The position numbers are program-made. A stretch of 64,000 bases of DNA from an uncultured bacterium (GTDB taxonomy: Bacteria > Babelota > Babeliae > Babelales > Babelaceae), in contig OY970209.1 of the NCBI GenBank assembly GCA_963713855.1, positions 1 to 64,000 of the forward strand, in the 5' to 3' direction. Below, in pieces: positions 45,401-48,400 of the stretch; the stretch's first letter is position 1, and every line of letters begins with the position of its first letter.

Positions 45401-48400
45401 ATTACTCAACAATTGCTCTTAAGTTTCTTTTTTAGAATGTTGGTTAATGCTCGCTAATCCAGACCTTTATTCGTTTTTTTGCATAGTTACCTCATAGAGT
45501 AATTCTTCAATCGTTTTTTGCTGATGGAGTGATACTCGCTTCTTTTTTTTAGGGCTTATGGTTCCTTTTAATTTATAAAAATGTTCTATAGCTTCACGTG
45601 CTTTTGTGTGCAGACGAACATACCTAAATGGAAAAATCAGTGAGAGAGAAATCATCCATAAGAATGAAATAACGATATGCTCGACAGTCGGATCGCCTAG
45701 AAAATGTATAAGCTGCTTTATCCATTGACCAAAAACACCCCCCGGCGCTATGCAAGGTACGTAATCGCAATTACTAAACGCGGCATACGTTAAAACCGTA
45801 AAAAGAATAACGAAATACTGCACGCACAGAGAAAAAAGGGCGCGAGACGAGTATCCTTTATATGCATAAAAGCCCATAGTGAGCCACATACAAAGAAAGA
45901 TCCAAGCAGCAGCACCTCCCATATAATATACTAAAAAACTCGAAGACCATGCACCGCATGCCCCAAGTTTGTTACAGTATACCCCTTGAAAAAGCGTATC
46001 TTCGTACGCCCATCCCTTATCTTTGGGGACAAAAAAAGCGAGCGATGCTATGAGATACACTATCACGCTTGAAAAAAATCCTAAAAAAATCTGCCTCATG
46101 AGTTCATTCCCTAATCGCGTTGCCTGAAAATACTACAAGCTTTACAAAAAGTGCAAGATAGACTGCTTAATACAAGCTTAAAAACGTGGGTAAAAAAAGC
46201 GCGAGGAGTGCAAATAACGAAAGATCCAGAAATCCTCGCACCATAAAAAAGCACTTATTATAAGCACTTATACTCCAAAAACTACGAGCTCCGACGATAA
46301 CTACGATGCCCATTTAATGACATGCAATAAACCATGGTTGAAAAATATCCGCATATTATACATAAAACTAATTTTAATAAAACGACTTGCCGCGGATTGC
46401 ATTTTTAAAAAGAAAACGTGGCCATTTGAGCCGGAAAATAAGCACAATTATAGAGTAAGTCAATGTAAAAGGTGCTTATAGACCTTCGGCAAAGTTAAAA
46501 GTGACTTATTAAAGAAGTGCGATACCTTTTCTAATAGCCGCAGGTGACCTGAGCTACTCGCTGGTAATGATACTGTAACGATTTGAACAAAGGTAAAAAG
46601 AAAAAAATCAAACGTAGACATCAGCCGTATCCTTATGTATCTTGAGCAAAAGCTTGATCTCGTAAGAGAATAATTATATATAAATACATGAATGATCTTG
46701 AGAATATTCTAAGATTAACTGTTGCAATCTCAAAATCTTTTGACTAAATTAAAGACCGACGCAAATTATGTTCAATAAGCAAAGGGTTAGCTTATAAAGA
46801 GGAAGGGGGTATAAAAGATTAAGGTACAGCAAACGAAAATTAACTTTAGCATATCGGTTGTTCTCGATTCAGGAGTAATCGAGTTAAGTCATACATAGGG
46901 AGTAATTTAATGAAACAATTGATCAAACAGTCCTTATCCTTGTTACTGTTGCTCTCCGCTTCAGTAGCTTTGGGTAATACTGACAGTAGTTTTGATGAAG
47001 ATGAAGGCAGCGATGAGTCTTCAGAAACGGCAAGTTCGGGTACCTCAACCGGCACCGACACCGAAGATAATGAGGGTGGCCGCCATCATAATAAATGCAG
47101 AAATGGTCATCACGGCTGCCGCACAAGCCTTTTCCTTCCACGTCCTCAATTTCTAAACTCTGCTCGCTTCTTTAATCCATTCTGGTATGGACGCGATGCT
47201 GAGTACCCATGCTTCAACATCGATTTAGGCTTTAGGTTTAGGCAATCCAGACACGAAGAGCGCATCGCTGAGTGTCTTTTTGGCAGAAATCGTATAGTCT
47301 TTACGGGAAGCGCAGTTCCAAACCAGAAGCGTGATAGCTTCGAGTTTGAAGGCGATCAACTTGGCTTATCACCATCCTACCGTGGTAGCGTACTCTTCCG
47401 TCCAAAAATTCGTGACTACATGTTCGATTTCGACTTACGTTGGGATGTGGGTAGCATGTTCGACTGGTGTGAAGGCGCTTACTTCGGCTTGAGAGGTACC
47501 GCTGTTCAATCACGTTGGCGTCTTAACCCTTGCATTGAGACAACAGAATCAAGCTCAATCGTTACCTTCAGTGACTTTAACAATTGTGTAATGTCCAAAG
47601 ACAAAGCACATGCGACAACAAGCATTGAAACAGCGTTGAGTGGTGACTTCTTGTTTGGAAACATGCAAGAACGCTGGGAATGGGGCCGCTTCAATTTCCG
47701 TGATCGTGATAAACAACGCGATACCAAGCTTGCAAACATAGACATCATACTTGGTTATGATTTCTTACTTTGTGAAGACTACCACTTTGGTGCATTCTTC
47801 AGAGCTTCTGCTCCAACAGGTACCAAGCCAGATGCACGTGAAGTATTCCAAAATATAATTGGTAACGGACACCACTGGGAAGTTGGTGGCGGTATCGATG
47901 CTCACTATGACGTCTGGGATTGCGATGACCAAACACTTGGAGTTTACCTTAATGGTGTGATATCTCACTTATTTAAGGATACACAGTGGCGTTCATTCGA
48001 CATTAAACGCCCTCAGCATGGTCGTGGCATCTCTTGCTTAAGCCGTTACACACTCCTTAAAGAGTTTGACGCTGCTAATAGATTCACCGGTAACCTCATA
48101 AACGCTATCAACTTTGCAACTCGCAAAGTACGTTCATCGTTTAGCGTTCAAGGTGATGCGGCATTACGTCTTCTCTATAAGAGCTGTGGATGGGCTCTTG
48201 GCGTAGGTTATAACGTATACGGACGTACCAATGAAAAATTGGCAGACGTATGCAGAAATAACGACTGCTTCAATAGAAACAGAGGACGCTTCTTTGCTAT
48301 TAAGGGAGATCAACCTTACTGCTCATCGTCTTCTAGTAGTTCAACAGATACGTGTACCTTGGATAACACAACAGCAAGCAATTTCCGTCCTATAAACGGT

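What a model noticed while it worked through the whole genome (the two positions that open the first line are those of the whole stretch)
45467..46099. FtsK reduced to its membrane anchor; no ParAB, SMC, Topo IV
ftsK is cut in place to a 210-aa four-helix membrane domain, and the DNA-translocase motor is gone from the whole genome. The same truncation is seen in the sister species and three other Babelaceae genera. With no ParB, no SMC and no topoisomerase IV either, this bacterium has none of the standard chromosome-segregation machines; HerA is its only FtsK/HerA-family ATPase.
Evidence so far: Motor domain in 58 of 61 order genomes but not G000 and in 34 of 41 family genomes. Absent from G000, G069, G070, G071 and G081, which keep short FtsK_4TM frames of 180-298 aa. 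Six relatives' FtsK give no tblastn hit for the motor. In G069 the short gene also runs straight into murF. ParB 0 of 31, SMC hinge 0 of 31; one GyrA-type gene; one Xer. KOPS octamer 26 leading vs 17 lagging, and no clear dif site.
(Added by a program. Inside this text positions count along the whole contig: contig position 1 is position 1 of the stretch shown here. "Call 12" and the like, gene names such as g00115 and contig names such as C1 are that model's own, and its searches are not shown. The text may have been shortened before it was handed on; [...] marks where a part breaks off. The agent that wrote the report below was given it as the finding of a first reader that could run no searches.)

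Follow-up and report, generated by a model that had tools for sequence, protein, structure and literature searches.

The report
Cell-division motor repeatedly cut to anchor
In one family of bacteria that live inside protists, the DNA pump that normally clears chromosomes from the division site has been cut back several separate times to its membrane anchor, which is kept, so these cells seem to divide with none of the usual active chromosome-sorting machines.

Summary
ftsK is cut in place to a 210-aa four-helix domain, and no motor domain is found in the genome. An independently assembled relative ends at the same residues at 50% identity, so this is neither an artefact nor a decaying pseudogene. 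In the 41-genome family, six genomes keep only the anchor and one has lost the whole gene. These are at least five separate losses (one clade rejected, p=0.0002). All six anchor-keepers retain FtsW/RodA; the whole-gene loser has none. Best reading: FtsK-N is kept as a divisome part, and the motor is dispensable. Lack of ParB, SMC and Topo IV is not special to this genome: ParB 3 of 121 and SMC hinge 0 of 121 in the order, one gyrA in 37 of 37 family genomes with a hit. HerA is in 40 of 41 family genomes, with NurA in 5 of 5 tested, so repair is likelier than replacement. Natural N-terminal-only FtsK (Serratia symbiotica) and loss of FtsK and Smc (Babela massiliensis) are published. The repeated loss with RecA intact and no back-up machine was not found in nine paper searches or in the scan's earlier notes.

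The parts
45467..46099 (-). ftsK remnant, 210 aa: FtsK_4TM domain (residues about 1-166) plus a basic helical tail of about 45 residues; no alpha, motor or gamma domain
   Evidence: Pfam PF13491 E 9e-14; model pLDDT 87, pTM 0.71, all helical; 50% identical over its whole length to P0123, same C-terminus
45330..45395 (-). Non-coding block between ftsK and murF, conserved in G000, G127 and G126, containing TTGACA; probably the murF promoter (inferred; bounds approximate)
   Evidence: DNA alignment; not listed by the consensus promoter scan
43913..45301 (-). murF
   Evidence: Pfam Mur ligase domains; found in 41 of 41 family genomes; follows ftsK in most relatives
43012..43911 (-). rsmH (mraW)
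   Evidence: PF01795 E 6e-89
42508..42792 (-). spoVG
   Evidence: PF04026 E 1.5e-32
46487..46624 (-). Decayed remnant of the uppP-like gene (name recalled from its motif) that precedes ftsK in relatives; only about 40 N-terminal codons are recognisable. Internal control for how unselected DNA decays here
   Evidence: tblastn with 24 orthologues, best E 5e-4; intact 257-aa gene in G127
46910..48820 (+). Member of a family-wide expanded secreted protein family that flanks the uppP-ftsK-murF block in relatives (synteny marker)
   Evidence: cluster c0; no Pfam match
55369..57843 (-). gyrA, the only type IIA topoisomerase A subunit found
   Evidence: TIGR01063 1096 bits over cut-off 877, parC models under cut-off; GyrA box present; E. 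coli ParC hits only this locus

Best explanation
The gene is the true ftsK orthologue, shortened by deletion to the part needed for septum building. FtsK-N stays in the membrane as a divisome component beside FtsZ, FtsA, an FtsQ-like protein, FtsW and FtsI (function inferred from E. coli and Caulobacter; retention under selection shown). The DNA pump was lost at least five times in this family because it is dispensable. The order already lacks detectable ParB and SMC, and the family has one gyrase (shown). Cultured members of the phylum grow as large bodies that split late (published), which would let many chromosome copies be shared out passively (inferred). Gyrase probably does the decatenation, and chromosome dimers are either resolved by the single conserved Xer without FtsK or tolerated (both inferred). 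When septal peptidoglycan synthesis is also lost, the anchor goes too (one case, G117).
For: In-place synteny. No motor remnant between the stop and murF in 7 of 7 motor-less loci. P0123 keeps the frame and the same end at 50% identity; neutral simulation left both frames open in 0 of 3000 runs at that divergence, and family-conserved columns are identical in 23 of 31 vs 77 of 168 others, p=0.006. The neighbouring uppP-like gene decayed while this frame did not. All six short forms keep TM1-TM4 and end before the alpha domain. SEDS genes in 6 of 6 anchor-keepers, none in G117; PBPs in 4 of 4 anchor-keepers tested, none in G117. Losses scattered on a 10-marker tree, at least 5 changes, one clade rejected at p-AU 0.0002; the full motor of sister lineage G126 groups as the species do. 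KOPS unpolarised in G000 (27 of 43 with fitted switch points) but polarised in full-FtsK G124 (26 of 31), G137 (25 of 33) and G141 (63 of the 78 rows listed). E. coli FtsK 1-200 suffices for division, as cited in PMC5013485.
Against: No expression or localisation data. The link between anchor loss and wall-synthesis loss rests on one genome. FtsK-N evolves fast (25% identity G000 vs G127) and somewhat faster in truncated lineages (median rate ratio 8.7 vs 5.7, p=0.07). G117 has no motor yet its 8 KOPS sites are all polarised, against a simple link between KOPS and motor. The life cycle and ploidy of G000 are unknown, and motor-bearing relatives presumably share the lifestyle. RecA, RuvAB and RecF are intact, so dimers should form and their fate is unexplained. 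In Corynebacterium FtsK becomes essential without SMC (PMC11898615 abstract) and in Caulobacter FtsK-C is essential (PMC10683668).
Confidence: 0.65

Rival explanations
1. The single Xer is an FtsK-independent, XerA-like recombinase that resolves dimers alone, and this is what made the motor expendable. Compatible with the best explanation; listed apart because it is a specific mechanism.
For: Catalytic R-H-R-H-Y intact; 74% identical in G127 and G126, above MurF; best solved relative is Thermoplasma XerA, E 4e-21, vs XerD 6e-17; best NCBIfam model XerA_Arch 141 bits vs XerD 117. Archaeal XerA recombines dif without a partner in vitro (PMC2958812). The family's second Xer often lacks the first catalytic arginine.
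Against: Below the XerA cut-off (141 vs 220). No dif near the terminus or beside the gene in 22 of 25 flanks examined (3 did not match). The gene lies 14 kb from oriC in G000. It is equally conserved in relatives with a full motor. Bacterial single recombinases XerS and XerH need FtsK.
Confidence: 0.3
2. HerA has taken over as the septal DNA pump.
For: It is the only FtsK/HerA-type ATPase detected in G000. The analogue idea is in print (Iyer 2004, seen only as cited in PMC2958812).
Against: Present in 40 of 41 family genomes, most with full FtsK. NurA present in 5 of 5, and an SbcC/Rad50-like gene in G000: the usual repair partners. It has an N-terminal HAS-barrel-like region. herA follows atpD-atpC in most of 30 loci, whatever the FtsK state.
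Confidence: 0.1
3. FtsK-N recruits an unrecognised soluble motor encoded elsewhere (a split translocase).
For: The new C-terminal tail is conserved between G000 and P0123 and predicted helical. Split ftsK frames just after TM4 occur in G148 and G011.
Against: No FtsK-type motor in six frames. Tails differ among the six truncations and are almost absent in G128 and G130. The G148 split is one frameshift in an assembly that also breaks herA.
Confidence: 0.07
4. The short frame is a pseudogene on its way out, with no function.
For: Fast evolution; G117 has lost it wholly; the gene upstream has decayed.
Against: Frame and stop kept across 50% protein divergence, 0 of 3000 under neutrality; PGG..G motif kept; rate ratio equals that of the full-length sister G126 (11.2 vs 10.7).
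Confidence: 0.06
5. Assembly artefact: the motor lies in unassembled DNA.
For: G000 has indel errors, is 91% complete and is not shown to be closed.
Against: The deletion is in place and not a frameshift; the same short gene comes from an independent assembly (P0123); five other genomes are truncated in place.
Confidence: 0.03

Closest known systems
Truncated FtsK of Serratia symbiotica SCc and STs (PMC5013485, passages read)
   Same: Natural reduction of ftsK to a small part, read by the authors as sufficient for division because E. coli FtsK 1-200 is.
   Different: Aphid endosymbionts in advanced erosion. Here the genomes are up to 1.6 Mb, keep RecA, RuvAB and a Xer, and the cut recurs at least five times in one family. 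Whether those strains keep MukBEF or Topo IV was not checked.
Babela massiliensis division-gene loss (PMC4378268, section 12 and passages read)
   Same: Same phylum; reported to lack FtsK and Smc, and to multiply as large bodies that split late.
   Different: It also lacks FtsW, FtsI, FtsB, MreB and MreC and loses the whole ftsK. G000 keeps the wall machinery and the anchor. The paper treats Smc as present in a relative; no SMC hinge was found here in 121 order genomes, so that may be SbcC (my inference).
E. coli and Caulobacter FtsK-N
   Same: About 200-213 residues, four membrane passes, localises to the divisome and is needed for constriction (PMC10683668 passages; Draper 1998 seen only as cited).
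   Different: There it is part of a full translocase, and the cells have condensins and Topo IV (recalled).
Archaeal XerA/dif with HerA and no FtsK (PMC2958812, PMC5357621, passages read)
   Same: Circular chromosome, active recombination, one Xer, HerA and NurA, no FtsK motor.
   Different: Archaea have a defined dif; none was found here. The Xer fails the XerA cut-off. G000 has a peptidoglycan septum and an FtsK anchor.
Bacteria without Topo IV or without Xer/dif (H. pylori, PMC3325230 abstract; Legionellales and insect symbionts, PMC2731167 passages)
   Same: Single losses of these machines are known and tolerated.
   Different: H. pylori still uses FtsK with XerH; G000 keeps Xer and drops the motor, the reverse of the Xer/dif-less cases.

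Membership tests
FtsK DNA translocase | N-terminal FtsK_4TM domain | tested here: met
   PF13491 51.9 bits, cut-off 23.1
FtsK DNA translocase | Orthologous position (uppP-ftsK-murF-rsmH) | tested here: met
FtsK DNA translocase | Alpha, RecA-fold motor and gamma domains | tested here: not met
   None in the ORF or the genome; all present in G126. It is an ftsK orthologue but not a translocase
FtsK-N divisome factor | Septal localisation and recruitment of FtsQ/L/B | not testable with these tools
   Partners are encoded; no experiment possible
ParABS | ParA, ParB, parS near the origin | tested here: not met
   ParB none; ParA none over cut-off; 4 parS-like hits at 2 mismatches, none near oriC
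SMC-ScpAB / MukBEF | SMC hinge, ScpB, MukB/E/F | tested here: not met
   the SMC-like ATPases found are RecF and an SbcC/Rad50-like protein. ScpA was not searched
Topoisomerase IV | Second A and B subunit genes without a GyrA box | tested here: not met
   One A gene with GyrA box, one B gene
HerA-NurA repair module | HerA central domain and a NurA partner in the genome | tested here: met
   PF01935 E 2e-27; NurA E 5e-25 at 101 kb
HerA-NurA repair module | herA and nurA adjacent; curated HerA cut-offs | tested here: not met
   About 190 kb apart; all NCBIfam HerA models far under cut-off
XerA (archaeal single recombinase) | Intact catalytic residues, single Xer | tested here: met
XerA (archaeal single recombinase) | NCBIfam NF040815 cut-off | tested here: not met
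   141 of 220 bits
XerA (archaeal single recombinase) | Cognate dif in the terminus region | tested here: inconclusive
   No convincing site; terminus regions of relatives were not compared
XerA (archaeal single recombinase) | Recombination without FtsK | not testable with these tools
   needs an in vitro assay

The most novel reading that the evidence does not exclude
These are walled, FtsZ-dividing bacteria with a 1.5-Mb two-replichore chromosome and intact RecA that have no active segregation machine at all: no ParABS, no condensin, no Topo IV and no septal DNA pump. They share out chromosomes passively and resolve dimers with a lone, FtsK-independent Xer, as archaea do. The family, with five or more natural motor knock-outs beside motor-bearing sisters, would be a ready-made test of segregation without motors.
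Probability: 0.35. Interest if true: 0.82.

Novelty: new variant of a known kind. Interest (0 to 1): 0.58.

Why it matters
In model bacteria FtsK, SMC, ParABS and Topo IV back each other up; in Corynebacterium, FtsK becomes essential once SMC is gone. Here a whole order shows no detectable ParB or SMC, and several lineages then drop the FtsK motor while keeping recombination and a septum. That repeats in nature the E. coli result that only FtsK-N is needed to divide, and it points at an open question: how a circular chromosome is unlinked, undimerised and cleared from a septum with no dedicated motor. Sister genomes with and without the motor allow a direct comparison.

Tried and rejected
Sequencing runs for the junction: none was listed, so no read or expression check. 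Complex prediction of FtsK-N with the FtsQ-like protein: no verdict (score 0.24, mark 0.32). Fold searches of the FtsK-N model: no match at E<=0.001 in pdb, best Z 6.1 on helical bundles in pdb_via_wide; uninformative. Metagenome scan gave 2 loci, both shadow frames over an SNF2 helicase; dropped. dif searches by consensus, by palindrome and by shared words around xer found nothing convincing. The idea that xer sits at the terminus was dropped: it fits G137, but the G124 gene is another recombinase and G000's lies by oriC. dN/dS between G000 and G127 is unusable because synonymous sites are saturated. Seven motor-less genomes outside the family were not counted as losses: G059, G099 and G045 have murF at a contig start (G059's contig begins inside the motor), G066 and G078 have ftsK running off a contig end, and G041 and G077 gave neither gene and cannot be judged. 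Split ftsK in G148 and G011 was counted as motor-bearing. E. coli TopB gave no hit, but it also missed the genome's own topA, so it says little. Iyer 2004 is not held.

Full report
1. The observation. The ORF at 45467-46099 (-) is 210 aa and matches FtsK_4TM over residues 8-166. It lies where relatives have a full ftsK of about 620-810 aa, between an uppP-like gene and murF-rsmH-spoVG, and stops 165 bp before murF. This is a deletion, not a frameshift: the three frames up to murF hold no motor sequence. Three genome-wide searches found no motor: Pfam, tblastn with 114 long FtsK sequences and a 58-sequence motor profile on six frames. The assembly has frameshifts in rpoB, rpoC and topA and is not shown to be closed (arms 801 and 720 kb). 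An independently assembled protein, P0123, is 219 aa, 50% identical over the whole length and ends in the same residues, which makes an artefact very unlikely.

2. How often. The motor is over cut-off in 111 of 121 order genomes sampled and 34 of 41 family genomes. Of the seven family genomes without it, six keep a short gene in place: G000 210 aa, G127 253, G068 293, G136 242, G128 173 and G130 154. G117 (one contig, 95% complete) has lost ftsK and the uppP-like gene. G128 and G130 are only 80% and 55% complete, but their truncations are in place. The seven motor-less genomes outside the family are explained by contig breaks (five) or cannot be judged (two). On a tree of ten markers for 41 family and 5 outside genomes the motor-less genomes are scattered, with at least 5 changes; holding them together is rejected (p-AU 0.0002). 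G126, sister to G000+G127 (support 99-100), has an intact 754-aa FtsK whose motor groups with G135 and G132 as the species broadly do (support 87), so it was not regained. Motors of several family lineages evolve faster relative to markers (2.7-3.7 in seven genomes) than those of four outside genomes (1.2-2.0), while genus g4 does not. This hints at relaxed selection before loss and is only a lead.

3. The anchor is under selection. All six short genes keep TM1-TM4 and the PGG..G motif and end before the alpha domain, a stretch that is 16% of the full gene. G000 and P0123 kept an open frame and a shared end across 50% divergence; a neutral simulation did so in 0 of 3000 runs, and family-conserved columns are better kept than others (23 of 31 vs 77 of 168, p=0.006). 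Next door, the uppP-like gene, intact in G127, has decayed to about 40 codons. Against: the domain evolves fast, and terminal-branch rates are higher in truncated genes (median 8.7 vs 5.7, 6 vs 15 genomes, p=0.07), though G000 equals full-length G126. The model is confident and all helical.

4. What it is kept for. G000 has FtsZ and FtsA, FtsW and RodA, three PBPs, Mur enzymes and a POTRA/FtsQ-like protein directly before ftsA (Atlas score 0.95-0.96; only 1 of 77 relatives reaches POTRA_1 at E<0.01). All six anchor-keepers have SEDS genes. G117 has no SEDS gene and no PBP. In E. coli FtsK 1-200 suffices for division (Draper 1998, seen only as cited in PMC5013485), and in Caulobacter FtsK-N (1-213) localises the protein and is needed for constriction (PMC10683668 passages). 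So the most likely role is divisome assembly. This is inferred, not shown.

5. The other machines. In G000 I found no ParB, ParA, parS, SMC hinge, ScpB, MukBEF, ParC, ParE or MinCDE; ScpA was not searched. The SMC-like ATPases are RecF and an SbcC/Rad50-like protein. This is the background of the group: ParB matches in 3 of 121 order genomes, SMC hinge in 0 of 121, and one gyrA locus in each of the 37 of 41 family genomes with a hit (G124 and G137 show pieces of one broken gene). These are 'not found in those searched'. Topo IV was checked in the family only. ParA without ParB does occur in G117 and, broken, in G127.

6. HerA, Xer, KOPS. HerA is in 40 of 41 family genomes, mostly after atpD-atpC, and NurA is in 5 of 5 tested. 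It looks like a repair module and does not track motor loss. RecA is intact in 5 of 5 motor-less genomes tested, with RuvA, RuvB and RecF in G000, so dimers should arise. The one Xer has intact catalytic residues, is 74% identical in G127 and G126 and scores best, but under cut-off, with archaeal XerA. No dif was found. KOPS in G000 are 26 vs 17, no more than G-rich control octamers (median 58%). With fitted switch points G000 gives 27 of 43, against 26 of 31 (G124), 25 of 33 (G137) and 63 of 78 listed rows of 101 (G141) in genomes with a motor (pooled p=0.024, kin not independent, switch points fitted, G142 rows not listed). Motor-less G117 gives 8 of 8, which does not fit.

7. Mechanism. Shown: repeated deletion of the motor, selection on the anchor, co-presence with septal wall genes, no standard back-up machine detected. 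Inferred: the anchor works in the divisome; partition is passive among many copies in a body that splits late, as described for Babela massiliensis and Chromulinavorax (PMC4378268 section 12 and passages, PMC6561590 passages); gyrase decatenates; dimers are resolved by the lone Xer or tolerated, as in the Xer/dif-less bacteria of PMC2731167 (passages). I put this at 0.65, the XerA-like step at 0.3 and HerA as a replacement at 0.1.

8. Prior art and novelty. Natural N-terminal-only FtsK is described in Serratia symbiotica; milder truncations in Pantoea carbekii and Arsenophonus (passages). Loss of FtsK and Smc is described in B. massiliensis. Yeoh et al. (PMC4776705, section 8) report degraded division genes across TM6; their Figure 2 and supplements, which may list ftsK, were not seen. 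Nine full-text searches of an open-access library found no report of repeated in-place truncation in this family or of the order-wide lack of ParB and SMC; subscription papers are not covered. The scan's own notes hold nothing like it. Verdict: a new variant of a known kind, interest 0.58. The gene event is known; its repetition on a background with no back-up machine and intact recombination is what a specialist would find surprising.

Noticed in passing
G000:C1:395586-395830 and 1293111-1294463: oriC (skew minimum and DnaA-box arrays) lies about 620 kb from dnaA, which sits about 100 kb from the terminus. The origin was already noted by the scan.
   Followed up: partly
G000:C1:364419-365159 (+): 246-aa POTRA/FtsQ-like protein directly before ftsA-ftsZ, with 113 relatives; Yeoh et al. 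reported ftsQ missing from all TM6 genomes they studied, so it may have been overlooked.
   Followed up: partly
G000:C1:565608-565877 (-): 89-aa ORF directly before the ftsI-like gene, no Pfam or NCBIfam match; position suggests FtsL.
   Followed up: no
L244-L268 (second Xer class): The family's second, XerC/D-like recombinase often lacks the first catalytic arginine and is missing from G000, G127, G126, G068 and most of genus g4.
   Followed up: partly
L370 and L182-L211: herA directly follows atpD-atpC in most of 30 family loci; nurA is elsewhere.
   Followed up: no
L176, L180 (G117); L177, L181 (G127): ParA-type ATPases without any ParB: two intact in G117, broken pieces in G127.
   Followed up: no
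L411, L413: Two named MAG loci have no full ftsK in the 5 kb before murF (L411 keeps a 32-aa gamma end); possible further losses, whole genomes not searched.
   Followed up: partly
window 46487-46624 (-): The uppP-like gene is decayed and no other copy was found in G000, although wall synthesis genes are intact; lipid-carrier recycling must use another phosphatase.
   Followed up: partly
window 38264-39718, 46910-48820, 48971-50812: Three members of an expanded, secreted, Cys-containing family with no Pfam match for the two scanned, present in several copies around ftsK across the family.
   Followed up: no
G000:C1:648685-657085, 118400-120700, 958081-960682: Frameshifts in rpoB, rpoC and topA, and a possibly split ftsH-like gene, point to indel errors in this assembly; other 'broken gene' findings on G000 need caution.
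   Followed up: partly
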